From positions 1 to 64,000 of the IMG/VR virus record IMGVR_UViG_3300017971_000201: 64,000 nt of DNA; one strand, 5' to 3'. Source of the stretch: a virus. A program made the position numbers and the translations under genes. Under the pieces are notes generated by a model. It did no database searches. It saw only the letters and a program-made list of their open reading frames with translations, and was not told the DNA's origin. Positions 16,722 through 28,898 of the stretch are shown piece after piece (position 1 is the stretch's first letter; the number at the start of each line of letters is the position of its first letter).

Positions 16722-18395
16722 GTGGCGAACAAGGCCATCTTCCAGGGCGCGACCGCAGGTCGCTCCGTTCCCGCAACCGACACCGTGAACAATGCCGGAG
16801 GCCGGGCATACGAGTTCGGCCCGAAGCACGCGCTCGCACAGCTGGCGTGCACCGGCACCTTCAACGAGACCTTCTACGGCACTGCCGTCGACCAGCTCGA
16901 GGGCATCCGCAAGGCGGCCGACCAGGTCGAGCCCACCTTCCTCGCCAAGTGCGCGGTCTACGCGCGCCAGAAGGGCGGGATGAAGGACATGCCGGCGGCA
17001 CTCATCGTCATGCTGTCGAAGGCCGACCCGGCCCTGTGCTCGCTCGTCTTTCCCCTGGTCATCGACAACGGGAAGATGGTCCGCAACCTGGTCCAGATGG
17101 TCCGCTCCGGCGCGCTCGGCCGGAAGTCGATGGGGTCTGGCCTCAAGCGGCTCGTCAACAAGTGGATCCAGCAGCGGTCGGCGCGCGCGCTCTTCCGCGC
17201 GACTGTGGGGAAGAGCCCCAGCCTGGCCGATGTGATCCAGCTCACTCACCCGAAGGCGAAGGACGAGGAGCAGAAGGCCCTCATCGGCTACATCCTCGGC
17301 CGAGAGCACGACGCGTCCAAGCTGCCTGGCATCGTCCAGCACTACGAGGCGTTCAAGCGCGGCGAGTCGGACGAGGTCCCCGACGTGGACTTCCGGCAGC
17401 TCACCTCGCTGCCGCTCAAGCCGCATCACTGGGCGCAGATCGTCCGCAACGGCGGATACCAGTTCACCATCAAGAACCTCAACACGGCGGCGCGCCACGG
17501 CGTGTTCGACGCGCCTGGGCTGTCCGAGCTGATCGCGGCCCGGATCGCCAACCGTGAGGAGCTGGAGAAGGCCAGGATCTTCCCCTACCAGCTGCTCGTG
17601 GCCTATCTGAACGCGGGCAGGCACCCGGACCCGACCTACCAGCGGTACATGGCCTACTTCCGTCGCCACAATGAGACGGCACGCTCTGAGATCGACCTGC
17701 CCGACTCGGTCAGGGACTCTCTCCAGGACGCGATGGAGGCGGCGACCGAGAACGTCCCCAGCTTCGGCGTGCCCACGGCGGTGATCGTGGACGTCAGCGG
17801 CTCGATGCAGTCCCCGGTCACGGGCGAGCGGAAGGGCTCGACGACCAAGGTCCGATGCGTGGACGTGGCCGGCCTCATGGCAGCCACCGTGCTTCGCCGG
17901 AACAAGGGTTCGATCGTGATCCCCGTGGACGCCGACGTCCACAGCACGCGGATCGTCAACCCGCGCGACACGGTCGTGACGAACGCCATCAAGCTGTCCC
18001 AGATGGGTGGCGGCGGGACCAACCTCTCGCTGGCCCTTTCCCACCTGAACAAGCTGAAGAGGTCGCACGAGTTCAAGCTCGTGATCATCGTCAGCGACAA
18101 CGAGTCGTGGGTCGACTCTCGCGGGTGCGCGGGCTACTACGGCCGTGGAACCCGGCTCATGGATGAGTTCCGCCAGCTCCAGCAGAAGGCCGGCGGCGCG
18201 CGGATGGTCTGCATCGACATCACGCCGAACAGGAGCACCCAGGCGCCGAGCGCGCCGGACGAGATCATGAACATCGGTGGGTTCTCGGACTCGATCTGGA
18301 GTACCATCAACCGCTTCGCGGCCGGCGACACGCACGACGTGGACGCCTGGGTCGCAGAGATTGAGGCGATCAGCCTCGAGCAGCCGGAGGTGTAA
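16722..18395 (+). CDS. rsr: Ro60/TROVE-domain RNA-binding protein (Rsr)
   Basis: NNAGGRAY, LAQLACTGTFNETFY, ARIFPYQL, C-terminal VWA VDVSGSM...GGGTN...SDNESW...IGGFSD. Confidence 0.92.
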   Translation: MANKAIFQGATAGRSVPATDTVNNAGGRAYEFGPKHALAQLACTGTFNETFYGTAVDQLEGIRKAADQVEPTFLAKCAVYARQKGGMKDMPAALIVMLSKADPALCSLVFPLVIDNGKMVRNLVQMVRSGALGRKSMGSGLKRLVNKWIQQRSARALFRATVGKSPSLADVIQLTHPKAKDEEQKALIGYILGREHDASKLPGIVQHYEAFKRGESDEVPDVDFRQLTSLPLKPHHWAQIVRNGGYQFTIKNLNTAARHGVFDAPGLSELIAARIANREELEKARIFPYQLLVAYLNAGRHPDPTYQRYMAYFRRHNETARSEIDLPDSVRDSLQDAMEAATENVPSFGVPTAVIVDVSGSMQSPVTGERKGSTTKVRCVDVAGLMAATVLRRNKGSIVIPVDADVHSTRIVNPRDTVVTNAIKLSQMGGGGTNLSLALSHLNKLKRSHEFKLVIIVSDNESWVDSRGCAGYYGRGTRLMDEFRQLQQKAGGARMVCIDITPNRSTQAPSAPDEIMNIGGFSDSIWSTINRFAAGDTHDVDAWVAEIEAISLEQPEV

Positions 18396-18396
18396 C

Positions 18397-18651
18397 GTGG
18401 GCGATCCGTTCTACTCGGTCCACTGCGTCGCCAAGATCGATGACGAGTTCGTCACCTACCGAGAGGTCTACCTCCTCGGACCGCAGTTCTGCGGAGGCGA
18501 GAAGCACGTGATCGCCAGGGTCTACCCGGAGGCCGAGCAGAATGCGCTGGCTGACGACAGTCGGCTGATGGGACTGCCGGAGGAGGTGAGGGAATTCCTC
18601 CGGTGGGCCGAGCGGAACGTCGTCTGTCCAGTCGTACGGCGGTCGGACTAG
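18397..18651 (+). CDS. Hypothetical protein
   Basis: ORF directly after rsr. Confidence 0.5.
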   Translation: MGDPFYSVHCVAKIDDEFVTYREVYLLGPQFCGGEKHVIARVYPEAEQNALADDSRLMGLPEEVREFLRWAERNVVCPVVRRSD

Positions 18652-19109
18652 GAACGTGGAGCCGACGCCGGACAGCCGCGAGTGGCGCGAGTACTGGCGC
18701 GAACGGGAGAAGAACCCCGAACAGCGCCGGGAGACGCGGCGCGAGAAGCGCGCGGCCCGGCGTCGGTTCCACAAGCGCTCGAGAAGTGCCGCAAGACGAT
18801 CTCTTCGAGAAACGTCTGGACAAACGGAAGACTCGATCTAGGATCAGCAGCGTGATCTGCATCCGCAGCACGAACGAGAACGATGAAGCGCCGCGAGCCC
18901 AAGACCGTGTGTCTGGCCCGCGTGAACGACGCGGGCGACATCCAGTGCGTCACCTCACCGATGACGCGCTCGGATGCGGAGGCTCTCCAGGAGCAGACGC
19001 GCTTCTCCACCCGGATAATCCCGAGAATACAAGCGGCGCGTAGGCGCGCCGGCCGAGATCTTCGGTCCCGCCTGCGCGCCTGAAGCCCGCCGGGAGCGAG
19101 CTTCACCCC

Positions 19110-19177
19110 GCCCCAGTCTGCGAGGCAGATCGCGATCTTGTACGTCGCGAGGCTCGGTGCGACTCCGAGCTGGGGCT
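19110..19177 (+). tRNA. Non-canonical tRNA-Thr(TGT)-like
   Basis: gccccag/ctggggc acceptor, minimal D arm, 7-bp anticodon stem with loop cttgtac. Confidence 0.6.
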
Positions 19178-19283
19178 TTTCTCAGAAACGATGACAGGTC
19201 TCCGGGCCTCAGTCGTAAGAGGGTCAGTCAAGACGAGGGCGCACCAACCGGCCTTGCTAGCCGGACCTGGGCGTCAACGCACA

Positions 19284-19296
19284 GCTGTTTGACAAC
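19284..19296 (+). promoter_or_regulatory. boxA-like antitermination site
   Basis: gctgtttgacaac just before the first canonical tRNA; repeated at 27312. Confidence 0.55.
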
Positions 19297-19307
19297 TCGC
19301 TGTCTTT

Positions 19308-19379
19308 GGGATCTTAGCTTAGGAAGTAGAGCGCCCGGCTGAAAACCGGAAGGCCCGAGTGCAACTCTCGGAGATCCCA
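19308..19379 (+). tRNA. tRNA-Phe(GAA)
   Basis: Cloverleaf; loop ctgaaaa. Confidence 0.9.
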
Positions 19380-19382
19380 TCT

Positions 19383-19457
19383 GGTCGCGTGGTGTAGCCA
19401 AGTCAACATGCCAGCCCGTCAAGCTGGAGATCGCGGGTGCGAATCCCGTCGCGACCG
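19383..19457 (+). tRNA. tRNA-Asp(GTC), C at position 33
   Basis: ccagc-ccgtcaa-gctgg. Confidence 0.85.
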
Positions 19458-19576
19458 TCATGGGAACCTGGCTGGTACCCAGAGGAGGAGCAGAGCGCTT
19501 CGCAAGAACAGGAGGTGACCTGGTGAGAGGTACGCTCACCGCAGAGGCGAATACCTAGGGTCGGAATCAACACCGA

Positions 19577-19648
19577 TCCTGGGATGCTCGATGGTCGAGT
19601 AGCCGCCTGTTAAGCGGAATGATGTGGGTTCGAGTCCCACCCCAGGAG
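19577..19648 (+). tRNA. tRNA-Asn(GTT)
   Basis: Loop ctgttaa; canonical TTC T loop. Confidence 0.85.
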
Positions 19649-19657
19649 TACAAACTC

Positions 19658-19695
19658 ACCGTCAGGTTCTCGGTGCGAATCCGAGGGGGTGAGCC
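19658..19695 (+). pseudogene. Orphan 3' half of a tRNA (Asn-like)
   Basis: accgtc-aggtt-ctcgg tgcgaat ccgag-ggggtga-g with no D arm upstream. Confidence 0.55.
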
Positions 19696-19697
19696 GC

Positions 19698-19769
19698 GCG
19701 TCGCAGGGAGATCAGTTCATCCGTCGGTCTGCAACACCGAAGAACCCGGTGCGACTCCGGGGCGGCGCT
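19698..19769 (+). tRNA. tRNA-Cys(GCA)
   Basis: tcggt-ctgcaac-accga; U73. Confidence 0.85.
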
Positions 19770-19772
19770 TCT

Positions 19773-19844
19773 AGGTCGCGCGCAAGGTACGCGGGCGGGT
19801 CTCCAAAACCTGCCGTCTGCTGGGTGCAAGTCCCAGGCGGCCTG
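19773..19844 (+). tRNA. tRNA-Trp(CCA)
   Basis: gcgggt-ctccaaa-acctgc; short D arm. Confidence 0.85.
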
Positions 19845-19846
19845 TC

Positions 19847-19914
19847 GTCCGAATGCCGTTCGAGTCTACATCTACCAACACGCTGTGACTCGGCAACAAC
19901 AACGTCGGACACCA
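19847..19914 (+). ncRNA. Short Y-RNA-like gene 1
   Basis: gtccgaatgcc...ctacatc...ggcaac...aacgtcggac-acca terminal stem. Confidence 0.7.
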
Positions 19915-19915
19915 T

Positions 19916-19988
19916 TGCCCCCTAGCTCAACTAGTAGAGTGCTTGGCTCTGAACCAAGAGGTTGTCGGTGCGAATCCGACGGGGGCTG
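19916..19988 (+). tRNA. tRNA-Gln(CTG)
   Basis: cttgg-ctctgaa-ccaag. Confidence 0.9.
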
Positions 19989-19992
19989 TCAT

Positions 19993-20068
19993 CGCGTGGT
20001 AGAGCAGTCAGGTTGTGCTCGCTGGGCTCATAACCCGGAGGTCGTAGGTTCGAATCCTACCCACGCTA
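19993..20068 (+). tRNA. tRNA-Met(CAT), initiator type
   Basis: 1:72 mismatch, GGG/CCC anticodon stem, loop ctcataa. Confidence 0.9.
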
Positions 20069-20072
20069 ACAA

Positions 20073-20146
20073 TGCGCGGTAGTCTAGTCAGGTACGACAC
20101 TGGGCTCATAACCCAGAGATTGCAGGTTCGAATCCTGTCCGCGCGA
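20073..20146 (+). tRNA. tRNA-Met(CAT), initiator type
   Basis: ctggg-ctcataa-cccag. Confidence 0.85.
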
Positions 20147-20151
20147 TCTGT

Positions 20152-20223
20152 TGCCCCCTAGCTCAAGAGTAGAGCGTCCGGCTTTGAACCGGAAGGTTGA
20201 GGGTGCGACTCCCTCGGGGGCTG
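20152..20223 (+). tRNA. tRNA-Gln(TTG)
   Basis: tccgg-ctttgaa-ccgga. Confidence 0.9.
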
Positions 20224-20275
20224 TCGGAACGCACGACCGGACGTTCCCTTTTCCCCTTTCGTCCCGTCGTGCTCT

Positions 20276-20346
20276 GGGGCATTGGTGAAACAGGATCACG
20301 CGGGCTTTGCAAGCCTGAATTGAGAGTGCGACTCTCTCATGCTCCA
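20276..20346 (+). tRNA. tRNA-Ala(TGC)
   Basis: G3:U70; loop tttgcaa. Confidence 0.9.
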
Positions 20347-20349
20347 TGC

Positions 20350-20420
20350 GGGCCATTCGTACAACAGCAGGACATCTCTCTTACAAGGAGAAGACGGGGG
20401 TGCGACTCCCTCATGGCCCA
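20350..20420 (+). tRNA. tRNA-Val(TAC)
   Basis: Loop cttacaa. Confidence 0.9.
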
Positions 20421-20429
20421 AAGGAACAC

Positions 20430-20501
20430 GCGGCCTTAGTTCCAGCAGCAGAACACCGGCTTGCCATGCCGGAGGCACGGGTGCAAATCCCGTAGGCCGC
20501 T
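20430..20501 (+). tRNA. tRNA-Gly(GCC)
   Basis: ccggc-ttgccat-gccgg. Confidence 0.9.
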
Positions 20502-20505
20502 TCAA

Positions 20506-20586
20506 CCGTCTGGGGTCCACCTAGTGGTGGTGCCGCGCTGTAAACGCGGTCCTTCGGGCAACGTGGTGCGAATCCACGCAGGCGGA
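20506..20586 (+). tRNA. tRNA-Tyr(GTA) with C1:G72
   Basis: ccgtctg/caggcgg acceptor; ccgcg-ctgtaaa-cgcgg; variable arm. Confidence 0.85.
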
Positions 20587-20651
20587 TCGGATCGCAAGCA
20601 GCACGGCAAGGTCCGGCTGGCCCGGTGAGCCCCACTGGGTATCCGGCGCAC

Positions 20652-20722
20652 GCGGCCTTGGCGTAGTAGTAACGCGTCAGCTTCCCAAGCTGACCGCACG
20701 GGTGCAACTCCCGTAGGCCGCT
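20652..20722 (+). tRNA. tRNA-Gly(CCC)
   Basis: tcagc-ttcccaa-gctga. Confidence 0.9.
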
Positions 20723-20726
20723 TCAA

Positions 20727-20801
20727 GCTCGGTTGGTGAAAGAGAATCACGCGAGGTTGTGGACCTCGAGTTCTACGGTGCGATTCCGAGACCGGGTACC
20801 A
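20727..20801 (+). tRNA. tRNA-His(GTG)
   Basis: cgagg-ttgtgga-cctcg; irregular T stem; encoded CCA. Confidence 0.8.
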
Positions 20802-20802
20802 A

Positions 20803-20874
20803 GCCCCCATGGCCTAACAGACAAGGCGCGTGGCTACGGACCATGAGATCCGGGTGCAACTCCTGGTGGGGGTA
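20803..20874 (+). tRNA. tRNA-Arg(ACG)
   Basis: cgtgg-ctacgga-ccatg. Confidence 0.9.
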
Positions 20875-20878
20875 TCGA

Positions 20879-20953
20879 CGGGCACGAGTCTCCAGATGAG
20901 CTGTCGCGCCTTATATGCGTAACGGCCGGGTGCAACTCCCGGGTGCCCTACCA
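20879..20953 (+). tRNA. tRNA with TAT anticodon (Ile-UAU-like)
   Basis: gggcac/gtgccc acceptor, gcgc-cttatat-gcgt, encoded CCA. Confidence 0.65.
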
Positions 20954-20984
20954 GCTCCGCTAGCCCAACAGCAGAGGCGCCGGT
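20954..20984 (+). pseudogene. 5' half of split short-arm tRNA-Leu
   Basis: gctccgc-ta-gcccaacagcagaggc-gccggt; D arm identical to tRNA-Leu(CAG) at 21771; acceptor pairs with gcggagc at 21681. Confidence 0.8.
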
Positions 20985-21012
20985 AGACAAAGCAGTAACG
21001 ACGCTGTAAAAC
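20984..21012 (+). promoter_or_regulatory. Sigma70-like promoter at left junction of HNH cassette
   Basis: TAGACA-17 nt-TAAAAC (preceded by TG), 6 nt before ATG. Confidence 0.5.
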
Positions 21013-21018
21013 AGAGGT

Positions 21019-21585
21019 ATGCGCAAAGAAATCTACCGTAGTCCCCCGCAGCAGATGCATGGTTATGTGGCCTACATCGTTCGCTACGACGACGGATTCA
21101 AGACCACGTTGTTCGAGCACCGGCTTGTGATGGAGCAACATCTAGGGAGGGCGCTACGGTCCGACGAAGTCGTTCATCACATAGATGGCGACAAGACAAA
21201 CAACGCGGCCGAGAACCTGGAACTTACTACTCCGTCGAAGCACGCGTCGAAGCACGCACGTCCGGCGCCGATAGTCGACCTGACCTGTCTGGTATGTGAG
21301 CGCTCGTTTGTCCGGCTAGCTCGGAAGGAACAGGAAAGGATCAGGCGTAGGAAGCGCGGCCCGTACTGCGGCAAGAAGTGCGCGGGGGTAGGTAGTCGCA
21401 AGCATCGTGGCAGGAAACGGGACAGCAAAGGCCGTATTCGATGTAGCGACTGCAAGCTCTTCCTACCAGAAGCAGAGTTTTGCAGGGAGCGCGGCAGGCC
21501 GGGTGGTCTGAGTTACAGGTGCAGATCCTGTAAGGCGGCCCAATTTCAATACAGGAAGAACAAGCAAGCCTCGGTGGCGGAATAG
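21019..21585 (+). CDS. HNH homing endonuclease with Zn fingers
   Basis: EHRLVMEQHLGRAL..EVVHHIDGDKTNNAAENLEL; CxxC pairs. Confidence 0.9.
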   Translation: MRKEIYRSPPQQMHGYVAYIVRYDDGFKTTLFEHRLVMEQHLGRALRSDEVVHHIDGDKTNNAAENLELTTPSKHASKHARPAPIVDLTCLVCERSFVRLARKEQERIRRRKRGPYCGKKCAGVGSRKHRGRKRDSKGRIRCSDCKLFLPEAEFCRERGRPGGLSYRCRSCKAAQFQYRKNKQASVAE

Positions 21586-21650
21586 CAGACGCGCTGGTCT
21601 CAAGAACCAGTGTCCGAAAGGACGTGTGGGTGCGAATCCCACCCGAGGCA
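21568..21650 (+). tRNA. tRNA-Leu(CAA), long variable arm, nested in split tRNA-Leu
   Basis: ctggt-ctcaaga-accag; overlaps the HNH stop codon. Confidence 0.9.
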
Positions 21651-21688
21651 AACACAGGAGGTTCCCAGTGCAAATCTGGGGCGGAGCA
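21651..21688 (+). pseudogene. 3' half of split tRNA-Leu
   Basis: acagg-aggtt-cccag tgcaaat ctggg-gcggagc-a. Confidence 0.8.
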
Positions 21689-21690
21689 AC

Positions 21691-21764
21691 GGTCCCGTAG
21701 CCCAATCAGCAGAGGTCCCGGCCTAAACCCAGGAACGGTCTCGGTGCAAATCCGAGGCGGAGCA
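21691..21764 (+). pseudogene. Chimeric/degenerate tRNA-Leu
   Basis: 5' ggtcccg does not pair with 3' gcggagc; D and T arms intact. Confidence 0.6.
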
Positions 21765-21770
21765 TCACAC

Positions 21771-21843
21771 GATCCTGTAGCCCAACAGCAGAGGCGCCGC
21801 ACTCAGGATGCGGAGGTTGTCGGTGCAAATCCGACCAGGATCA
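21771..21843 (+). tRNA. tRNA-Leu(CAG), short variable loop
   Basis: ccgca-ctcagga-tgcgg; 5-nt variable region. Confidence 0.9.
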
Positions 21844-21845
21844 TC

Positions 21846-21913
21846 GCTCGAATGCCGTCGTGGACTACATCCTGAACACATGACGTCTGCGGCAACACCA
21901 ACGTCGAGCACCA
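21846..21913 (+). ncRNA. Short Y-RNA-like gene 2
   Basis: gctcgaatgcc...gactacatc...ggcaac...aacgtcgagc-acca; co-varying stem relative to 19847. Confidence 0.7.
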
Positions 21914-21914
21914 C

Positions 21915-21997
21915 GCTGCCGTGGCGGAACAGCAGACGCGCCTGGTTGAGGGCCAGGTTCCCGAAAGGGAGTGGAGGTGCAACTCCTCTCGGCAGCA
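21915..21997 (+). tRNA. tRNA-Leu(GAG)
   Basis: cctgg-ttgaggg-ccagg; long variable arm. Confidence 0.9.
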
Positions 21998-22001
21998 TCT
22001 T

Positions 22002-22074
22002 GGGGTCGTGGCCAAGCAGTAAGGCGCCGCTCTGATAAGGCGGAGACTCGTGAGTGCAAATCTCACCGGCCCCA
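22002..22074 (+). tRNA. tRNA-Ile(GAT)
   Basis: ccgct-ctgataa-ggcgg. Confidence 0.9.
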
Positions 22075-22092
22075 TGCGACGATGAAGATCGA

Positions 22093-23463: not shown

Positions 23464-23481
23464 GAGGCCCGTCTCCGCCCC

Positions 23482-23565
23482 GGAGCCGAGAACCTGGGGT
23501 AGTCCTGGGGCTCGCTTGGAAAGCGATGCGTTCTTCGGATTGGAGTGCGACTCTCCCCGGCTCCG
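23482..23565 (+). tRNA. tRNA-Ser(GGA)
   Basis: tcgc-ttggaaa-gcga; 4-bp T stem. Confidence 0.8.
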
Positions 23566-23573
23566 TGCTTGCT

Positions 23574-23783
23574 ATGATCGGCGCTGTGAAAAGCAAGATC
23601 GAAGTAGGCGAAACGGTACTTAGAGCGACGCTTGGATCCAGCGGTGATCTAGTTGTCGTCTCGGGTATCGAATCAGACAACGGCGTGGTCACCCGCTACC
23701 TGGTTAAGCCTGTAGCTCAACCAGACAGCGAGCCTGAACTAGTTCCTGCTGATCTGATTCACAGCCTACGCAAACGCCCCTGA
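23574..23783 (+). CDS. Small hypothetical protein
   Basis: Lower-GC ORF between tRNAs. Confidence 0.45.
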   Translation: MIGAVKSKIEVGETVLRATLGSSGDLVVVSGIESDNGVVTRYLVKPVAQPDSEPELVPADLIHSLRKRP

Positions 23784-23811
23784 AGCAGAAGCAGTGCTGC
23801 GCCTGCCTCGT
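23776..23811 (+). pseudogene. 5' half of split tRNA-Thr(CGT)
   Basis: gcccctg-aa-gcag..ctgc-g-cctgc-ct-cgt. Confidence 0.75.
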
Positions 23812-23892
23812 CGCTCTGGGTGGGCGCAGAGACGAGAATTGTCAGACGTCTTTATCGCACCATGTTCTGTGCTCAGGTAAAGCCCGGAACAA

Positions 23893-23963
23893 GCTCCTGT
23901 AGTTCAACAGCAGAATGCCTCTCTCGTAAGGAGGAGACGCGGGTGCAATTCCCGCCGGGAGCT
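23893..23963 (+). tRNA. tRNA-Thr(CGT), nested in split tRNA-Thr(CGT)
   Basis: cctct-ctcgtaa-ggagg. Confidence 0.9.
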
Positions 23964-23976
23964 TCAGCCTCAGATC

Positions 23977-24015
23977 CGTAAGCAGGAGAACCCGGTGCGA
24001 CTCCGGGCGGGAGTA
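23977..24015 (+). pseudogene. 3' half of split tRNA-Thr(CGT)
   Basis: cgt-aa-gcagg-agaa-cccgg tgcgact ccggg-cgggagt-a. Confidence 0.75.
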
Positions 24016-24019
24016 TCAA

Positions 24020-24091
24020 GCTCGCGTCGTCCAACAGATAGGATACGAGCCTCCGAAGCTCGAGATCTGGGTGCGACTCCCAGCGCGGGTA
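24020..24091 (+). tRNA. tRNA-Arg(CCG)
   Basis: cgagc-ctccgaa-gctcg. Confidence 0.9.
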
Positions 24092-24166
24092 TACAGGATG
24101 GACCCAGCTCCGGCTGGGGTAAATAGCGGCTGGCTGCACACCATCCTCATCAGTCAGTCGCGCCAA

Positions 24167-24240
24167 CAGGGCGTGGCGCAGTCTAGCAGCGCGTTGGTCT
24201 GGGGGACCAAAGGTCGTGGGTGCGAATCCCACCGCCCTGA
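24167..24240 (+). tRNA. tRNA-Pro(GGG)
   Basis: ttggt-ctggggg-accaa. Confidence 0.9.
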
Positions 24241-24267
24241 TCAGGAACGGGCAGACCCGTTCCGCTT

Positions 24268-24338
24268 GCCCTGATAGCTTAGTAGCAGAGCACTCGCTTG
24301 GTACGCGAGAGATCCCGGTGCGACTCCGGGTCAGGGCT
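24268..24338 (+). tRNA. tRNA-Thr(GGT)
   Basis: ctcgc-ttggtac-gcgag. Confidence 0.9.
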
Positions 24339-24343
24339 TAGAC

Positions 24344-24631
24344 ATGGCGAAGCTACGACGAGAGAAGCTGCCGGACGGAACCGACGCCGGCCTGCTGTCG
24401 TTCCAGTGTCCAGGCTGTGGCGCGCGCCACGCCTTCCGCATCATGTTCGACCCGGACCTGCCCGAAGAGCAGGTATGGTCGTGGAACGGCGACATGGACG
24501 GGCCGACGTTCGACCCAGCGCTGAAGGCCCCAGGCTGCCACCTCCGGTGCGTCGAGGGCAAGCTGCACTTCTTCGTCGACTCGGGGCACAAGCTCGCCGG
24601 CCGGCTCGTGGACCTGCCCGACGAGCTGTGA
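24344..24631 (+). CDS. DUF6527-like Zn-binding protein
   Basis: FQCPGCGARH, WSWNGDMDGPTFDP, CH, DSGHKLAG. Confidence 0.7.
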   Translation: MAKLRREKLPDGTDAGLLSFQCPGCGARHAFRIMFDPDLPEEQVWSWNGDMDGPTFDPALKAPGCHLRCVEGKLHFFVDSGHKLAGRLVDLPDEL

Positions 24632-24632
24632 C

Positions 24633-24818
24633 GTGGCCGATTGCGATCACGAGTGGGAGGAGATCCACCACTACGGCGAGGATCTCGAGGGCCGGCTGAT
24701 CCACTACTGCCCGACCGGCTTCAAGTGGTGCAGGCTCTGCCGCAGGGTCGAAGACGAAGACAACCCCCAGTGCCATCTCTGGGGCGAACCAGATCCGATA
24801 CAACCCGCAGACACGTAG
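24633..24818 (+). CDS. Small Cys/His protein
   Basis: CDHEW...WCRLC. Confidence 0.45.
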   Translation: MADCDHEWEEIHHYGEDLEGRLIHYCPTGFKWCRLCRRVEDEDNPQCHLWGEPDPIQPADT

Positions 24819-24872
24819 AGTGGGCTCGCTCTCATAAGGCGATGCAAGACGGTGCAAGCCCGTCCTGCGGGA
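24804..24872 (+). tRNA. tRNA-Met/Ile2(CAT), elongator type with reduced D arm
   Basis: cccgcag/ctgcggg; tcgct-ctcataa-ggcga. Confidence 0.7.
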
Positions 24873-24876
24873 TCAT

Positions 24877-24913
24877 GGAACGTGAACCGGACAAGCGTGC
24901 CGGGCCGGTCTCG
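24877..24913 (+). pseudogene. 5' half of split tRNA-Ser(CGA)
   Basis: ggaacgtg-aa-ccggacaagcgtgccgg-gc-cggt-ct-cg; near-identical to the 5' end of Ser(GCT) at 22648. Confidence 0.85.
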
Positions 24914-24944
24914 CGCTACGATCCCGTCAATTACGGGGTGCATC

Positions 24945-25559
24945 ATGCCGGGCAAACGGCGACCGGACCTGAGAGAACGGGCCATCAACCTGCGGTGCAA
25001 GCAGAAGCTCGGCAGGAACGAGATTGCGCGTTGCCTTGGAGGGCTGGTGAGCCCTGTAACTGTTGGCCGGTGGTTGCGGAACCACCCGCTCCGTAAGAAC
25101 GAGGAGCGGCGGGTTCGCGAGACTGCCATCAAGAAAAGGCGCCCACGGCAACCGAAGCAGCCGAGAGTTCACTGCGAGGTCTGCGGAAAGAAGTGCAGTC
25201 GCGGGGCGAAGCGTTTTTGCTCTGATTGCGCGGTCGGACGAGTACGAAGTCCCAGACGAGAACCGACACAGCGTTACCTCGTCGAAGACAGGCTGGTCAA
25301 CTCGACGCGCCTCAAGACAAGACTCATCGAGGAGGGTTATCTAGAGGATCGTTGCGGCAAGTGCGGTTCGTTGCCGGAGTGGAACGGTGAGCCGCTCAAC
25401 CTCCAGCTGGATCACATCGACGGAAACCGTAGGAACAATCTTCTCAGCAACCTTCGGATTGTTTGTCCCAATTGCCACTCGCAGACGCCGACCTACGCTG
25501 CCAGGAATCGCAGGAATCCGAAGAGGTCGAGAAGGAAGCCGCGTTACGCGCACGAATGA
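24945..25559 (+). CDS. HNH homing endonuclease with N-terminal HTH
   Basis: CGKCG..EWNGEPLNLQLDHIDGNRRNNLLSNLRIVCPNCHSQT. Confidence 0.9.
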   Translation: MPGKRRPDLRERAINLRCKQKLGRNEIARCLGGLVSPVTVGRWLRNHPLRKNEERRVRETAIKKRRPRQPKQPRVHCEVCGKKCSRGAKRFCSDCAVGRVRSPRREPTQRYLVEDRLVNSTRLKTRLIEEGYLEDRCGKCGSLPEWNGEPLNLQLDHIDGNRRNNLLSNLRIVCPNCHSQTPTYAARNRRNPKRSRRKPRYAHE

Positions 25560-25563
25560 AATT

Positions 25564-25653
25564 GGAGAGCGTCCGGCTAGACGAGGAGCACGTCTCGAAA
25601 ACGTGTAGGGCGTACGTAAGTGCGTCTTCAGGGTGCGAGTCCCTGGCTCTCCG
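25564..25653 (+). tRNA. tRNA-Ser(CGA), canonical 7/5 fold, nested
   Basis: cacgt-ctcgaaa-acgtg; ggagagc/gctctcc. Confidence 0.9.
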
Positions 25654-25667
25654 TAGGAGCGGGAAGA

Positions 25668-25715
25668 CGAAAACCGTGCGTCCTTCGGGTTGGGGTGCAA
25701 CTCCTCCGCGTTCCG
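25668..25715 (+). pseudogene. 3' half of split tRNA-Ser(CGA)
   Basis: cga-aa-accg-variable arm-gggg tgcaact cctc-cgcgttcc-g. Confidence 0.85.
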
Positions 25716-25718
25716 TCA

Positions 25719-25791
25719 CAGGGTGTAGCTTAGGAGCAAAAGCGCCGCGTTCGGGACGCGGAGAGCGTGGGTGCGAGTCCCACCACCCTGA
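25719..25791 (+). tRNA. tRNA-Pro(CGG)
   Basis: ccgcg-ttcggga-cgcgg. Confidence 0.9.
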
Positions 25792-25815
25792 TCAACCATG
25801 AGGTAGAACATCTGC

Positions 25816-26262
25816 ATGAACGAACCCGAATGGTGCGCTCTCTGCGCGGACGCTCCGGCCGTCGGCCGGCTCTTTCCAGTGGTCTACCTCACGCAGGATG
25901 AGGTGAAGTCGGAGCGCCCGCTGCCGAGACACGAGACTCGCTGCTGCGCGCGGTGCGGGAACCAGGCGTCCGACAGCTTCGTTGACGAGAACTTCGAGAC
26001 CGGCCGGATGGCTGTACTCCAGTTCGAGCACGACGACTTCGCGAAGGTCTCCGAGAAGCGGATCCTCGAGCTGGTCGGTCAGCTCGAGAACGCGCAGTGC
26101 TCGCTGTGCGGTAAGAAGATGGAGAACGACCCGGATGCCATGCCGGCGCGTCCGCTGGCCGAGAAGCTGCTCCGGGAGCATCCGAACATGAAGTACGTGA
26201 CAGCAGTGTGCGCCGACTGCGCGCCGAGCTGCCCGTGCTGCGACGAAGAAGAGAACAACTAG
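25816..26262 (+). CDS. Multi-CxxC Zn-finger protein
   Basis: Four CxxC pairs plus CPCC. Confidence 0.65.
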   Translation: MNEPEWCALCADAPAVGRLFPVVYLTQDEVKSERPLPRHETRCCARCGNQASDSFVDENFETGRMAVLQFEHDDFAKVSEKRILELVGQLENAQCSLCGKKMENDPDAMPARPLAEKLLREHPNMKYVTAVCADCAPSCPCCDEEENN

Positions 26263-26333
26263 GGGCAGTAGCTCAATAGGAGAGCGCCTCGTTCGCAACG
26301 AGGAGGTTGTCGGTGCGACTCCGATCTGCTCCA
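26262..26333 (+). tRNA. tRNA-Ala(CGC)
   Basis: cctcg-ttcgcaa-cgagg. Confidence 0.9.
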
Positions 26334-26334
26334 T

Positions 26335-26422
26335 GAAGGCGTGACGAATCAGCGTCGTGGCTCGCGAGTGCGTTACGGAACTTGGGATCGTCGGGCTCCG
26401 GGTGCAACTCCCGGCGTCTTCA
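26335..26422 (+). ncRNA. tRNA-like RNA without a canonical anticodon arm
   Basis: gaaggcg/cgtcttc acceptor, D hairpin gacg/cgtc, T arm ccggg-tgcaact-cccgg. Confidence 0.55.
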
Positions 26423-26426
26423 TCAA

Positions 26427-26499
26427 GGGGCCTTAGCTCAGTTAGGAGAGCGCCGATCTGGCAGGTCGGAGGTCACGAGTGCGAATCTCGTAGGCTCCA
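26427..26499 (+). tRNA. tRNA-Ala(GGC)
   Basis: ccgat-ctggcag-gtcgg. Confidence 0.9.
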
Positions 26500-26500
26500 T

Positions 26501-26583
26501 GGAAGGTGATCTCGGCCAGCTGCCGAGCGCGGTTTTGAAAACCGATGGAGCTTCGGCTTGGGGTGCAACTCCTCCGCCTTCCG
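26501..26583 (+). tRNA. tRNA-Ser(TGA), 8/4 fold
   Basis: cggt-tttgaaa-accg; ggaaggtg/cgccttcc. Confidence 0.85.
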
Positions 26584-26584
26584 T

Positions 26585-26668
26585 GGGCTTCTACCGGAGA
26601 CCCAGTTCATGAGCGTGGTGGCCGGGCTCGCTAGCAGGGCGGGGTTCGATTCCCTCTGGAGGCTCCCA
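26585..26668 (+). ncRNA. tRNA-like element (T arm plus terminal stem)
   Basis: gggcttcta/tggaggctc stem, gggg-ttcgatt-ccct, ends cca. Confidence 0.4.
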
Positions 26669-26670
26669 AA

Positions 26671-26744
26671 GGGCGCGTAGCTCAGTTAGTCAGAGTGCCT
26701 CGGTGACATCGAGGAAGTCCTGGGTGCGAATCCCAGCGTGCCCA
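26671..26744 (+). tRNA. tRNA-Val(GAC)
   Basis: cctcg-gtgacat-cgagg. Confidence 0.9.
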
Positions 26745-26832
26745 TCGCAACTCGCGCGAGCGAGTCTGTGATGGTGGAGTGCGTCCGGTCTTCCGGTCGC
26801 CCCCGGCCGAGCCCCTCCCGGCTCGGCCACCT

Positions 26833-26903
26833 GGCCCCACGGTCTAGTAGCAAGATGCGAGTCTTTCACGCTCGAGAGGAGGGTGCGATTCCCTCTGGGG
26901 TCA
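26833..26903 (+). tRNA. tRNA-Glu(TTC)
   Basis: cgagt-ctttcac-gctcg. Confidence 0.9.
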
Positions 26904-26964
26904 TCGGCGATCCGCGCGACCGGCGGATGTAAGCGAGGCCACGCGCGGCCCCGCCCCAGCTCAC

Positions 26965-27035
26965 GCGGACGTACGTCAACAGCAGACTGTCGGGCTTCCA
27001 ACCCGTCGATGCCGGTGCAAATCCGGTCGTCCGCT
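26965..27035 (+). tRNA. tRNA-Gly(TCC)
   Basis: cggg-cttccaa-cccg. Confidence 0.85.
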
Positions 27036-27039
27036 TCCT

Positions 27040-27109
27040 GCCCCCGGCAGAGAGGCAGCCGGCTCTTCTAAAGCTGGCCTTCCCGGTGCGACTCCGGGCG
27101 GGGGTACCA
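27040..27109 (+). tRNA. Non-canonical tRNA-Arg(TCT)-like
   Basis: gcccccg/cgggggt, no clear D stem, 7-bp stem gccggct-cttctaa-agctggc, encoded CCA. Confidence 0.65.
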
Positions 27110-27110
27110 C

Positions 27111-27182
27111 GGGTCTGTGGTGTAACAGGAGCACACTCGGCTTTTACCCGAGGCGGTCAGGGTGCGAATCCCTGCGGACCCA
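27111..27182 (+). tRNA. tRNA-Lys(TTT)
   Basis: ctcgg-cttttac-ccgag. Confidence 0.9.
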
Positions 27183-27241
27183 TGAAACTTCCTTGCGGTT
27201 GTCGGCCGCAGGGTATAACCAAGACAGCGAGTGAAGGAGTC

Positions 27242-27306
27242 GTGCCGGTCCGAAGCCGATCCGTTTTCCCCACTTTCCCCCTTTAGGAAAAGCAACTGGC
27301 CGGCGC
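27242..27306 (+). ncRNA. Y-RNA-like gene, animal-Y-like architecture
   Basis: gtgccggtc-cgaag ... polypyrimidine loop ... ctggccggcgc. Confidence 0.7.
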
Positions 27307-27311
27307 GCTCC

Positions 27312-27324
27312 GCTCTTTGACAAC
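27312..27324 (+). promoter_or_regulatory. boxA-like antitermination site
   Basis: gctctttgacaac upstream of tmRNA. Confidence 0.6.
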
Positions 27325-27340
27325 TCGGGCACGAACACAC

Positions 27341-27689
27341 GGGGCTGACATGGCATCGACCGGGTCAGTGAATCTCGTGCTGCGTGTAGAGGTCCCCGGT
27401 TGGCCTCTCTAAACAACCGGGAAACTGAACAATTGCCAACGCACCTGTTCGCCTGGCAGCCTAAAAAGGCCGCCCCCAGCTGGATCCCCCGCCCATGGGG
27501 TGAAAGATCTGGGCCATAAGATGGGCTGGTCCCGCGCTGGAGTCTCAGCGGCAACGGACGAGAAACTACTGCGACGCCCCACGACCAGCATCCTGCTCTC
27601 GGTCTGGTCGCGGGTAAGCTCGAGAGCTACGCACGTAGACGCACGAAGGGATCGACTACGGGACCGGGGTTCGATTCCCCGCAGCTCCA
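27341..27689 (+). ncRNA. ssrA: tmRNA
   Basis: 5' ggggctga..gg.atcgac; tag ORF 27435-27464 = ANAPVRLAA*; 3' gaccggggttcgattccccgcagctcca. Confidence 0.95.
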
Positions 27690-27699
27690 GGTATCTCCA

Positions 27700-27728
27700 T
27701 TGAGCATCTCTCCTCCGCTCCATACAAT
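27700..27728 (+). promoter_or_regulatory. Sigma70-like promoter
   Basis: TTGAGC-17 nt-TACAAT followed by ggagg RBS. Confidence 0.6.
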
Positions 27729-27746
27729 CGGATCGGAGGTGCCGAG

Positions 27747-28352
27747 ATGCCCACAATGGAGACGATCGAGTGCGCCAGCTGCGGCCAGTCGGTTGAGAAG
27801 CCGCTCGGCGAGGTCACTCGATCGAAGAAGCTCGGCAGACCGATGTTCTGCGGTCTGTCGTGCTCGGCAACGCACAGGAACGCGACCAGAAAGGCGCGCG
27901 AGTTCGAGATGACCTGCGAGTGCGGTGAGGTGTTCACCACCACGACGCGCAACAAGGCCAAGCGTCACTGTTCGCGCTCATGTGCGAGCAGATTCTCGAT
28001 GACCAGAAGACGCCGGTCAGCGCAGCGCGCGGCCGGCAAGAAGCACAAGCAGAACCTCGACACAGCCAAGGCTATGAGGTCGCGAGAGGCTTGGAAGTAC
28101 TCGCTGCTGCGAGAAGAGTTGGGAGACCGGCCACATGAGTTCGAGTTCGAGCTTGGCGGTCGCATTTTCGACCTAGCCCTTCTCGACACCAAGATGCTGG
28201 TCGAGTTCGACGGTCCTAGTCATCGTGAAGGCCGACAACGGATGGAAGACGGAGCGAAAGACAAGCTCGCCGCCAAACTAGGATGGCGAGTCGTTCGACG
28301 GGAGGTGAAGCGGGCGACCGTGATCCACCCCTCGACGATCGAGGACTTGTAG
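27747..28352 (+). CDS. Zn-finger + DUF559/Vsr-like endonuclease
   Basis: Two CxxC..FC/HC.xxC repeats; FDLAL..LVEFDGPSH..D..KD..GWRVVR. Confidence 0.8.
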   Translation: MPTMETIECASCGQSVEKPLGEVTRSKKLGRPMFCGLSCSATHRNATRKAREFEMTCECGEVFTTTTRNKAKRHCSRSCASRFSMTRRRRSAQRAAGKKHKQNLDTAKAMRSREAWKYSLLREELGDRPHEFEFELGGRIFDLALLDTKMLVEFDGPSHREGRQRMEDGAKDKLAAKLGWRVVRREVKRATVIHPSTIEDL

Positions 28353-28375
28353 GGGTTCGATTCCCGCCAGCTCCA
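28352..28375 (+). repeat. Displaced duplicate of tmRNA 3' end
   Basis: ggggttcgattcccgccagctcca vs ggggttcgattccccgcagctcca at 27666-27689. Confidence 0.85.
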
Positions 28376-28379
28376 TCGA

Positions 28380-28453
28380 CGCGCGGTGGGCTAATCCGGT
28401 ACGCCGCCGGGCTCATAACCCGGAGACTGGGGGTTCGAATCCCTCCCGCGCTA
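28380..28453 (+). tRNA. tRNA-Met(CAT), initiator type
   Basis: ccggg-ctcataa-cccgg; 1:72 mismatch. Confidence 0.85.
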
Positions 28454-28480
28454 TCCCCTCTCGTCGATCACGATGTCGGC

Positions 28481-28603
28481 CGGCGGCCGAATGAACTGAC
28501 GGGAGTACATCAGTGAGCGCAGGCTCCTCTAGGTAACCTGGACTCGGCAGGGCTAGGAGGAGCCGACAACCCGGCGGCGTGACCGCAAGCTCTCACGTCG
28601 CCG
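28481..28603 (+). ncRNA. Y-RNA-like gene (longer, non-tRNA effector domain)
   Basis: cggcggccgaatg..ggagtacatc ... cacgtcgccg. Confidence 0.55.
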
Positions 28604-28641
28604 ACCAGGCGGTCGTGGGTGAGATCCCCGCGACCGTCATA

Positions 28642-28715
28642 GGACCGAATGCTCCGGCGGGACTACATCTTGAGGAGACGTTTCGTCTCGCTGACCCCAC
28701 AACGTCGGTCCACTA
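28642..28715 (+). ncRNA. Short Y-RNA-like gene 3
   Basis: ggaccgaatgc..gggactacatc ... caacgtcggtcc. Confidence 0.7.
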
Positions 28716-28721
28716 GAACAA

Positions 28722-28876
28722 CCCACGAATGCCTTGGGAGACTACATCCTGCAAGCCGGTGTCCGAATGGACGTGCGGGTTCGAGTCCCGCCCGGCCGCC
28801 TCGACGGCCGGTGGCGGAATGGTAGACGCGCCGGAGGTGGAGACACCATGAAGTCCCCCGCCCCTTACGTCGTGGG
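28722..28876 (+). ncRNA. yrlA: YrlA-type Y RNA (permuted tRNA mimic)
   Basis: cccacgaatgcc..gactacatc; then variable arm, T arm gcggg-ttcgagt-cccgc, loop-closed acceptor ccggccg/cggccgg, D arm tggcggaatggtagacgc; 3' acgtcgtggg closes the terminal stem. Confidence 0.85.
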
Positions 28877-28898
28877 CTCCACACAACACGTGCTAGGG

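What the first reader, a model, noticed from the sequence alone, without database searches (positions are those of the whole stretch)
16722..28876. Phage Ro60 with a family of six Y-RNA-like genes of different architectures
Seen: rsr lies directly upstream of the array. Five elements share CGAATG...TACATC...ACGTCG with co-varying terminal stems (19847, 21846, 28481, 28642, 28722), and a sixth (27242) has GGTCCGAAG. Established: Ro60 binds a conserved terminal helix of Y RNAs (bacterial 5'-strand motif close to GNCGAAN(0-1)G), Y RNAs tether Ro60 to effectors such as PNPase, and usually one or two are found per locus. Inference: one Ro60 with a set of exchangeable RNA adaptors, co-transcribed with tRNAs and perhaps acting in tRNA repair or counter-defence.
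Basis: partly seen in the sequence, partly recalled or inferred. Interest (0 to 1): 0.85.

Follow-up and report, generated by a model that had tools for sequence, protein, structure and literature searches.

The report
Phage Ro60 with several Y RNAs
An uncultured large phage encodes the RNA-binding ring protein Ro60 and, scattered through its tRNA gene array, at least four small RNAs that share the known Ro60-binding "handle" but carry different bodies; the same many-RNA arrangement turns up beside related Ro60 genes in other phages and in many bacteria, which is more than the one or two partner RNAs described so far.

Summary
The composite motif CGAATG..TACATC..ACGTCG occurs five times in the 160-kb phage record. 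All five are on the Ro60 strand and inside the tRNA array, against about 0.01 expected by chance.

The motif is the Ro60-binding handle of the known bacterial Y RNA family YrlA: helix P1, AUGC, helix P2, CUACAU.
- **Solid, four elements.** E5 (28722-28876) is a full YrlA with a tRNA-like domain. E1, E2 and E4 are 64-70-nt "mini-Y" RNAs made of the handle plus a hairpin.
- **Partial, E3.** It is a structured RNA but keeps only the 5' half of the handle.
- **Not supported, the sixth element (27242).** It is a real covarying hairpin with a conserved pyrimidine loop. Its GGUCCGAAG is at chance level and absent in the sister phage.

A covariance model built from one mini-Y finds mini-Ys next to Ro60 genes in five other viral contigs, and in about 50 of 80 bacterial rsr loci, mostly Planctomycetota, at E up to 1. 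Arrays of 2-8 handle RNAs are common there. In three phage records the Y RNAs fill tRNA-tRNA spacers exactly, which suggests release by tRNA-processing enzymes.

No RNA-repair genes were found. Expression and binding are untested. Other agents in this scan reported similar arrays beside Ro60-like genes in other phages.

The parts
16722..18395 (+). Ro60 (Rsr) gene: TROVE ring domain plus Ro60-type vWA domain with the MIDAS motif VDVSGSM
   Evidence: Pfam TROVE 2.4e-10 and vWA_Ro60 2e-9, both above their cut-offs. PHROG 850 RNA-binding protein, 7e-33. 43% identity to Myxococcus phage Mx1 Ro60 and 85% to the sister phage. Matches the solved Thermus phage phiLo Ro60 at 1.5e-12.
19847..19914 (+). 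E1, a mini-Y RNA: P1 GUCCGA/UCGGAC, AUGCC, a 7-bp P2, a loop starting UACAUC, a CA-rich 3' strand, then ACCA. It fills the spacer between tRNA-Trp (ends 19846) and tRNA-Gln (starts 19915).
   Evidence: Handle model R3 63.4 bits, E 1.6e-15. Unconstrained fold gives P1 and P2. The sister-phage ortholog keeps P2 through an A-U to U-A swap.
21846..21913 (+). E2, a mini-Y RNA: P1 GCUCGA/UCGAGC and a 9-bp P2. It fills the spacer between tRNA-Leu(cag) (ends 21843) and tRNA-Leu(gag) (starts 21915).
   Evidence: R3 69.8 bits and fold. It was the seed of model R2, which finds relatives beside other Ro60 genes.
28475..28637 (+). E3, a structured RNA with only the 5' half of the handle (CGAAUGAAC..GGGAGUACAUC), a long covarying hairpin, an 11-bp hairpin that contains ACGUCG, and a further covarying hairpin at 28610-28637.
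   Evidence: The hairpins keep pairing through double changes against the sister phage. No consistent P1: enforcing P1 costs 4.5 kcal/mol (-54.1 to -49.6) and enforcing P1 plus P2 costs 10 (to -44.1), and the sister phage closes differently. R3 9.2 bits, E 1.1.
28642..28711 (+). E4, a mini-Y RNA: P1 GGACCGA/UCGGUCC, a 9-bp P2 and a small apical hairpin.
   Evidence: R3 68.1 bits. Fold z-score -2.15. Nearly identical in the sister phage.
28722..28876 (+). E5, a full YrlA-type Y RNA: handle (P1 CCCACGA/UCGUGGG) plus a tRNA-like body with a V hairpin, T arm GCGGGUUCGAGUCCCGC, a 7-bp acceptor-like stem and D arm GCGGAAUGGUAGACGC.
   Evidence: R3 30.9 bits, E 1.3e-6, with a 99-nt insert. Rfam YrlA gives a partial hit of 22.4 bits on the tRNA-like part. 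Matches the YrlA consensus by eye. The V hairpin and closing stem covary with the sister phage. Similarity to the sister phage stops right after 28880, so the ATG at 28849 is probably not a gene start.
27225..27315 (+). E6, a long hairpin with the conserved loop UCCCCACUUUCCCCCUU, between tRNA-Lys and tmRNA. It is not a handle-bearing Y RNA and may be the leader of the tmRNA precursor.
   Evidence: The middle stem differs but stays paired in the sister phage, and the loop and flanks are conserved. GGUCCGAAG is not conserved and is at chance level. No R3 or Rfam Y_RNA hit.
20231..20272 (+). A second hairpin with a pure pyrimidine loop (UUCCCUUUUCCCCUUU), between tRNA-Gln and tRNA-Ala. Its relation to Ro60 is unknown.
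   Evidence: 12-bp hairpin, z-score -4.76, none of 200 shuffles as stable. No counterpart was seen at the same place in the sister phage.
19110..30004 (+). tRNA array (34 ARAGORN tRNAs, none with an encoded CCA) and a tmRNA (27341-27690), interrupted by HNH and DUF559 endonuclease ORFs. It is the host site of the Y RNA genes.

Best explanation
The phage makes its own Ro60 ribonucleoprotein set. It has one Ro60 protein and at least four Y RNAs that share one Ro60-binding handle: a terminal helix P1 that includes CGA/UCG, an internal loop with AUGC, a helix P2, and CUACAU. The RNAs differ in what sits on top of P2. E5 carries a complete tRNA-like body, as in classical YrlA. E1, E2 and E4 carry only a 19-21-nt loop or a tiny hairpin (mini-Y).

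The genes sit inside the tRNA array on the same strand. E1 and E2 occupy whole tRNA-tRNA spacers. The most likely route to mature RNAs is therefore a polycistronic tRNA transcript. The 3'-end cleavage of the upstream tRNA would define the Y 5' end; none of these tRNAs has an encoded CCA. RNase P cleavage of the downstream tRNA would define the Y 3' end.

By analogy with Deinococcus, Salmonella and Thermus phage phiLo, the handle would dock on Ro60 and the body would decide the partner. The tRNA-like E5 could tether Ro60 to host PNPase or to tRNA-binding enzymes. The body-less mini-Ys could occupy Ro60 without bringing a partner, acting as gates or competitors.

Shown here: the handle homology, the covariation, the linkage to Ro60 genes and the tRNA-flanked layout. 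Inferred: expression, the processing route, Ro60 binding and the partners.
For: - **Motif statistics.** Five copies against about 0.01-0.06 expected, all on one strand within the array.
- **Handle identity.** The Rfam YrlA consensus cggCGAAUGCuuggGgaaCUAc...AaAcUuGucGccg equals the shared motif.
- **Structure.** In 11 mini-Ys from 7 viral contigs, 97.5% of cells are paired against 70.9% in shuffles and 28-44% when partners are slid. Eleven of 15 pairs show changes on both sides.
- **Folding.** Unconstrained folds of 24 elements from 7 phage contigs give P1, an internal loop and P2 in all but two, E3 and L105:12754.
- **Linkage in viruses.** Model R2, built only from E2 and its ortholog, hits next to Ro60 genes in L105, L107, L108 and L109, and also hits L011, a short contig where no Ro60 gene is in view.
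- **Linkage in bacteria.** R2 gives 77 hits at E up to 1 in 80 bacterial rsr loci, 75 of them on the rsr strand. A descriptor finds 242 modules on the rsr strand, 5 on the other strand and 20 in reversed controls.
- **Orthologs.** All the elements are present in the sister phage, whose Ro60 is 85% identical, with compensatory changes in the E1 P2 and in the E5 body.
- **tRNA-flanked layout.** It holds in the window, L007 and L106.
- **Processing context.** No tRNA has an encoded CCA, and there is no excess of terminators in the array.
- **Precedent.** YrlA was reported in 22 phages (PMC4201824). The phiLo Ro60 binds two phage Y-like RNAs and host PNPase (PMC12135203).
Against: - There are no expression data, and no RNA run holds this DNA.
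- The Rfam YrlA model does not reach its cut-off for any element. E5 scores 22.4 bits against 69.
- Only E3 has the full published GNCGAAN0-1G. The others have a non-G first base.
- E3 to E5 lie 10 kb from rsr, outside the 4-kb rule used in the literature.
- Alignment A8 was fitted to the model, so its pair counts lean towards the structure.
- The ACCA tails of E1 and E2 are not kept in the sister phage.
- Neither phage encodes PNPase or RNA-repair enzymes, so any effector must come from the unknown host.
Confidence: 0.78

Rival explanations
1. The mini elements are decayed YrlA copies that lost their tRNA-like body. They persist as neutral spacer DNA in the tRNA array and have no function with Ro60.
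For: They lack any obvious partner-binding body. E3 looks like a partly decayed copy. The array is full of homing-endonuclease insertions and tRNA remnants.
Against: Mini forms make up about a quarter of the modules in 80 bacterial loci, and occur beside Ro60 in six independent viral contigs. P1 and P2 keep pairing through double changes. E4 is almost unchanged between phages whose neighbouring sequence has diverged.
Confidence: 0.08
2. The elements serve tRNA-array processing or act as decoys for host enzymes or toxins that recognise tRNA ends or the UACAU loop. They would work independently of the phage Ro60.
For: They fit exactly between tRNAs. E1 and E2 end in ACCA after a helix, like an acceptor end. 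UACAU is the reported cleavage motif of Bacillus and Staphylococcus MazF; this is from my own knowledge and was not tested.
Against: The same handle lies beside Ro60 genes in contigs and bacterial loci with no tRNA array at all: L105, L108, L109 and the Planctomycetota loci. ACCA is absent in the sister phage. The handle is that of YrlA, which is immunoprecipitated with Rsr in Salmonella and M. smegmatis (PMC4201824).
Confidence: 0.07
3. The RNAs are aimed at a host Ro60 (Rsr) or at host Y RNA partners. They would titrate the host's RNA-surveillance machinery rather than serve as adaptors for the phage protein.
For: The handle is shared with bacterial rsr loci, including Comamonas and Planctomycetota, so cross-binding is conceivable. 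Several cargo-less copies would suit titration.
Against: The phage keeps its own intact Ro60 with a MIDAS motif on the same strand just upstream. Every related viral locus pairs the RNAs with a viral Ro60 gene. The host is unknown.
Confidence: 0.07

Closest known systems
YrlA Y RNAs with Rsr (Ro60) in bacteria and 22 phages (Chen et al. 2014, PMC4201824; Rfam RF02553)
   Same: Same handle: CGAAUGC, P2, CUAC, and a 3' strand ending in UCG plus the P1 complement. E5 has the T arm, acceptor-like stem and D arm. The RNAs are on the same strand as rsr, and a phage origin has precedent.
   Different: All elements score below the Rfam cut-off. Three copies have no tRNA-like body at all. There are at least four copies rather than the roughly 1.3 per genome reported (355 in 276 genomes). 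The copies are spread over 10 kb inside a tRNA array instead of lying within 4 kb of rsr.
[quoted passage not shown]
   Same: The mini-Ys are, like these, short Ro60 partners without a full tRNA-like domain. E6 and the hairpin at 20231 match the description 'long hairpin with pyrimidine-rich loop'.
   Different: The mini-Ys have loops rich in C and A, not pyrimidine loops. E6 and the 20231 hairpin lack a conserved Ro-binding motif and were not shown to accompany Ro60 elsewhere.
Thermus phage phiLo Ro60 with Yrl1 and Yrl2, which forms a complex with host PNPase (PMC12135203)
   Same: A phage Ro60 with more than one phage-encoded Y-like RNA carrying a CGAA motif. It gives a working model for hijacking host PNPase.
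   Different: phiLo Ro60 is only about 23% identical. It has two RNAs directly upstream of the gene and no embedding in a tRNA array. The handle model does not hit distant Ro60 clades.
Metazoan Y RNAs (hY1 etc., Rfam RF00019)
   Same: The general logic of a terminal helix bound by Ro60 and a variable loop that recruits partners, with several paralogs per genome.
   Different: No sequence or model match. The GGUCCGAAG resemblance in E6 is at chance level and is not conserved.

Membership tests
Ro60 / Rsr protein | TROVE (HEAT-repeat ring) domain above the Pfam cut-off | tested here: met
   PF05731 40.6 bits against a cut-off of 23
Ro60 / Rsr protein | C-terminal Ro60-type vWA domain with a MIDAS motif (DxSxS) | tested here: met
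   PF25045 38 bits against a cut-off of 27.7. D357, S359 and S361 are invariant in the 25-sequence alignment A5.
Ro60 / Rsr protein | Closed ring fold | not tested
   No structure prediction was run. There is only a sequence match to the solved phiLo Ro60 (9KOP/9L5Y, E 1.5e-12).
YrlA (Rfam RF02553) | Score at or above the family's gathering cut-off (69 bits) | tested here: not met
   The best hit is E5 at 22.4 bits, on model positions 30-81 only. The YrlA hits in Streptomyces phage TunaTartare (34.8 bits) and Myxococcus phage Mx1 (32 bits) also fall short.
YrlA (Rfam RF02553) | Handle: terminal helix containing CGA/UCG, AUGC loop, second helix, CUAC | tested here: met
   Consensus comparison. 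R3 scores 63-70 bits for E1, E2 and E4, and 30.9 bits for E5. Covariation. Not met for E3 (9.2 bits) or E6.
YrlA (Rfam RF02553) | 5' motif GNCGAAN0-1G (Chen et al. 2014) | tested here: inconclusive
   All five have CGAAUG. Only E3 has G two bases upstream. In E1, E2, E4 and E5 that base is U, C, A and C and pairs within P1.
YrlA (Rfam RF02553) | tRNA-like domain (T arm, acceptor-like stem, D arm) | tested here: met
   Met for E5 only. Tested and not met for E1, E2, E4 and E3, which should therefore not be filed as YrlA proper.
YrlA (Rfam RF02553) | Encoded within 4 kb of rsr on the same strand | tested here: inconclusive
   All are on the same strand. E1 is 1.45 kb and E2 3.45 kb downstream. 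E3 to E5 are 10 kb downstream.
Y RNA in general | Physically bound and stabilised by Ro60 | not testable with these tools
   Needs immunoprecipitation or a gel shift.
YrlB / Yrn2-type hairpin Y RNA | [quoted passage not shown] | tested here: inconclusive
   E6 and 20231-20272 have the hairpin and the pyrimidine loop. The candidate Ro motif of E6 is not conserved. No linkage to Ro60 in other genomes was shown.
Metazoan Y RNA (RF00019) | Match to the family model, with a conserved GGUCCGA bulged helix | tested here: not met
   No Y_RNA hit at E up to 10 in 16-31 kb. GGTCCGAAG is expected 1.2 times per window.

The most novel reading that the evidence does not exclude
Ro60 of this clade, in Planctomycetota, some Proteobacteria and several large phages, may work with a library of up to eight Y RNAs built as one constant handle plus exchangeable bodies: a full tRNA mimic, a T arm only, GC-rich hairpins, or nothing. 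In phages the library has been moved into tRNA arrays, so that each Y RNA is cut out by the host's tRNA-processing enzymes. The body-less mini-Ys would be a distinct functional class, acting as caps or competitors that set how much Ro60 is free, gated or tethered, rather than decayed copies.
Probability: 0.3. Interest if true: 0.72.

Novelty: new variant of a known kind. Interest (0 to 1): 0.56.

Why it matters
Ro60 and Y RNAs are conserved from bacteria to humans, where Ro60 is a lupus and Sjogren autoantigen. How Y RNAs direct Ro60 to different tasks is still largely open.

A natural system with one Ro60 and a graded series of Y RNAs makes the adaptor model directly testable. The series runs from a minimal handle, through handle plus T arm, to handle plus a full tRNA mimic. 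The minimal 64-nt forms define the smallest natural Ro60 ligand.

The exact placement between tRNA genes suggests a simple way for phages to mature non-tRNA RNAs. It would also explain why model searches limited to full YrlA within 4 kb of rsr have undercounted Y RNAs. The arrays of up to eight in bacterial rsr loci suggest the published figure of one or two is an underestimate for a whole clade.

Tried and rejected
- **Rfam.** At gathering thresholds it finds only tRNAs and the tmRNA.
- **MAFFT alignments of paralogs.** They put the 3' strand of P2 out of register. I therefore built models from P1 only (R1), from one ortholog pair (R2) and from the model-fitted alignment (R3).
- **Exact-pattern scan of viral contigs.** It gave 69 loci. 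All but the sister phage and L011 lack flanking complementarity and look like chance. L011 is a 4.5-kb fragment with a portal gene and no Ro60 in view.
- **Expression.** No RNA holder is listed for this DNA, and read laying was not used.
- **Promoter and terminator scan.** Not above shuffles.
- **Enzyme families.** RtcB, PolyA_pol/CCA-type nucleotidyltransferase, PF09414 RNA ligase and RNase PH (PNPase) are absent from both phage records. T4-type Rnl1/Pnk families were not searched.
- **E6 leads.** The idea that the E6 pyrimidine loop is a conserved tmRNA-upstream feature shared with Mx1 was dropped, because the Mx1 tract is part of a terminator-like hairpin. A pairing between AUG of the handle and CAU of UACAU was considered and dropped, because the Planctomycetota variant CUG does not covary.
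- **Literature not held.** Two reviews (PMC10870794, PMC6047535) and the supplementary tables of Chen et al. 2014 are not in the library. I could not check whether multiple YrlA copies per planctomycete locus were already tabulated.

Full report
**What the window is.** The window is the first 64 kb of a 159,664-bp IMG/VR virus record with 64.6% G+C. CheckV estimates the record as 58% complete. ORF 16722-18395(+) is a genuine Ro60/Rsr. It matches TROVE and the Ro60-type vWA domain above the Pfam cut-offs and PHROG 850, and it matches the solved Thermus phage phiLo Ro60 by sequence. The closest named relative is Ro60 of Myxococcus phage Mx1, at 43% identity. A complete 275-kb sister phage, IMGVR_UViG_3300029258_002750 (G001, locus L007), has an 85% identical Ro60 and a syntenic tRNA and tmRNA array. 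Downstream of rsr lie 34 tRNA genes and a tmRNA on the same strand, interrupted by HNH and DUF559 endonuclease ORFs.

**The observation.** It occurs nowhere else in 160 kb on either strand. First-order Markov simulations give 0.057 two-part and 0.007 three-part matches per window. The sixth element's GGTCCGAAG is present once, but 1.2 copies are expected by chance.

**What the motif is.** The Rfam YrlA consensus reads cggCGAAUGCuuggGgaaCUAc, then the T arm, acceptor-like stem and D arm, then uucCccaaAaAcUuGucGccg.
- CGA and UCG close the terminal helix P1.
- AUGC is the 5' side of an internal loop.
- CUAC(AU) follows the second helix P2.

E5 (28722-28876) matches the whole consensus. It has T arm GCGGGUUCGAGUCCCGC, a 7-bp acceptor-like stem and D arm GCGGAAUGGUAGACGC. 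An extra hairpin explains why Rfam scores only the tRNA-like part, at 22.4 bits. E1, E2 and E4 have the handle, but a 19-21-nt loop or a tiny hairpin sits where the tRNA-like body should be. I call these mini-Y RNAs.

**Structure and covariation.** The P1 helices differ between paralogs while staying paired. The sister phage has orthologs of all five elements, plus one more YrlA at L007:13784-13912. P2 of E1 changes from GAGUC/GACUC to GUGUC/GACAC, and the V hairpin and closing stem of E5 show double changes.

I built a covariance model from E2 and its ortholog alone (R2). It finds mini-Ys in five further viral contigs. On the resulting 11-sequence alignment, 97.5% of cells pair, against 70.9% in shuffles and 28-44% with slid partners. 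Eleven of 15 pairs show changes on both sides. That alignment is fitted to the model and so leans towards the structure. As an independent check, unconstrained minimum-energy folds of 24 elements from seven phage contigs give P1, an internal loop and P2 in all but two, E3 and L105:12754.

A broader model was run without filters over 16-31 kb (R3). It scores E2 at 69.8 bits, E4 at 68.1, E1 at 63.4 and E5 at 30.9. E3 scores only 9.2 bits, which is not significant. It gives nothing for E6 and only 6.3 bits (not significant) for the 20231 hairpin.

**E3 and E6.** E3 is a real structured RNA. A long hairpin, an 11-bp hairpin and a further hairpin at 28610-28637 all keep pairing through compensatory changes in the sister phage. 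However, its ACGUCG lies inside the 11-bp hairpin. The sister phage has CGGAUG and GCGUCG. No common terminal helix can be drawn for both phages. I read E3 as a divergent or partly decayed paralog.

E6 is a long hairpin. Its middle stem differs but stays paired in the sister phage, and its loop UCCCCACUUUCCCCCUU and its flanks are conserved. The GGUCCGAAG is replaced by GGACCGGGUAG, so the resemblance to vertebrate Y RNA is coincidental. Nothing ties them to Ro60, and E6 may simply be the leader of the tmRNA precursor.

**Linkage to Ro60 elsewhere.** I retrieved loci by Ro60 similarity. Handle RNAs were found in L105 (3), L106 (8), L107 (5), L108 (3), L109 (2), Mx1 (2) and the sister phage (5 plus E3').

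In 80 bacterial rsr loci, mostly Planctomycetota with some Comamonas and others, a descriptor finds 242 modules on the rsr strand. It finds 5 on the opposite strand and 20 in reversed-sequence controls. The median is 3 per locus and the maximum is 8. R2 alone gives 77 hits at E up to 1 there, 75 of them on the rsr strand. The bodies fall into four kinds: 64 mini, 51 with a T arm only, 61 with T and D arms, and 66 long without a T arm.

Several Y RNAs of different architecture per Ro60 is thus the rule in this clade, not a peculiarity of this phage. I found no paper describing it in the held library. Chen et al. report 355 YrlAs in 276 genomes, and their tables are not held. Other agents of this scan have reported analogous arrays beside more distant Ro60-like genes in other phages.

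**Layout and likely maturation.**
- E1 begins at the base after tRNA-Trp and ends 4 nt before tRNA-Gln.
- E2 begins 2 nt after one tRNA-Leu and ends 5 nt before the next.
- The same holds for three elements in the sister phage.
- It also holds for all eight in L106, with spacers of 0-5 nt.

None of the tRNAs has an encoded CCA. Their 3' ends must therefore be cut at the discriminator, which would create the Y 5' end. RNase P at the next tRNA would create the Y 3' end. This is inference. The promoter and terminator scan was uninformative and no RNA data exist. The 7-bp acceptor-like stem of E5 resembles that of M. smegmatis YrlA, which RNase P cleaves (PMC4201824).

**Function.** By homology, the handle docks on Ro60. 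In Deinococcus and Salmonella, and in vitro for phiLo, the rest of the Y RNA tethers PNPase (PMC4201824, PMC12135203). Neither this record nor the complete sister phage encodes PNPase-type domains, RtcB, a CCA-type nucleotidyltransferase or a PF09414 ligase. Any partner must therefore come from the host, and the tRNA-repair idea has no support from gene content. The mini-Ys have no obvious partner-binding body. The most economical reading is that they occupy Ro60 as gates or competitors, but that is speculation.

**Verdict.** This is a real phage Ro60 with at least four real Y RNAs of the YrlA handle family, one divergent relative and one unrelated hairpin. The kind is known. The variant is, as far as I could search, undescribed: body-less mini-Y RNAs, many paralogs, and genes slotted into tRNA arrays.

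Noticed in passing
window 19110-30004: 29 of 35 tRNAs have a T loop reading UGCRA, with G where the universal U55 stands. The three tRNA-Met, Asn, Tyr(10839), Leu(29930), the tmRNA and the T arm of the Y RNA E5 keep UUCGA. No tRNA has an encoded CCA.
   Followed up: partly
window 19288-19299 and 27316-27327: TTTGACAACTCG occurs exactly twice in the 160-kb record: 7 nt before tRNA-Phe and 12 nt before the tmRNA. It is conserved before the tmRNA in the sister phage. It lies too close to the mature 5' ends to be an ordinary -35 box.
   Followed up: partly
L106 (IMGVR_UViG_3300027917_000034) 7666-11884: Eight handle-bearing Y RNAs flank a Ro60 gene. Each lies between two tRNA genes with 0-5 nt spacers, and their bodies are all different.
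   Followed up: yes
L128-L207 (80 bacterial rsr loci, mostly Planctomycetota): Tandem arrays of up to 8 Y RNA modules (core CRACUGCC..GAGUACAU..CUUCGUYG) lie directly upstream of rsr on the same strand. The median is 3 per locus, more than the one or two described in the literature I could read.
   Followed up: partly
window 28610-28637: A 9-bp hairpin between E3 and E4 keeps pairing through two compensatory changes in the sister phage. It may be part of E3 or a processing signal.
   Followed up: no
window 21019-21585, 22807-23463, 24852-25559, 27747-28352: Three HNH endonuclease ORFs and one DUF559 endonuclease ORF sit inside the tRNA and tmRNA array. A second copy of the tmRNA 3' end follows the DUF559 gene (28353-28375).
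   Followed up: no
window 19911-19914 and 21910-21913: E1 and E2 both end in ACCA after the terminal helix, like a tRNA acceptor end. The sister phage has GCGCC and GCGUC there, so the tail is not conserved.
   Followed up: yes
window 28849-28880: The ATG at 28849 with a GGAGG upstream lies inside the 3' part of E5. Similarity to the sister phage ends at about 28880, so the downstream gene probably starts later, for example at ATG 28899.
   Followed up: partly
L001 (Myxococcus phage Mx1) 4255-4383 and 4607-4710: Mx1 has two unannotated YrlA-type RNAs among its tRNA genes, 11 kb upstream of its Ro60 gene. One overlaps the annotated small ORF at 4610-4732.
   Followed up: partly
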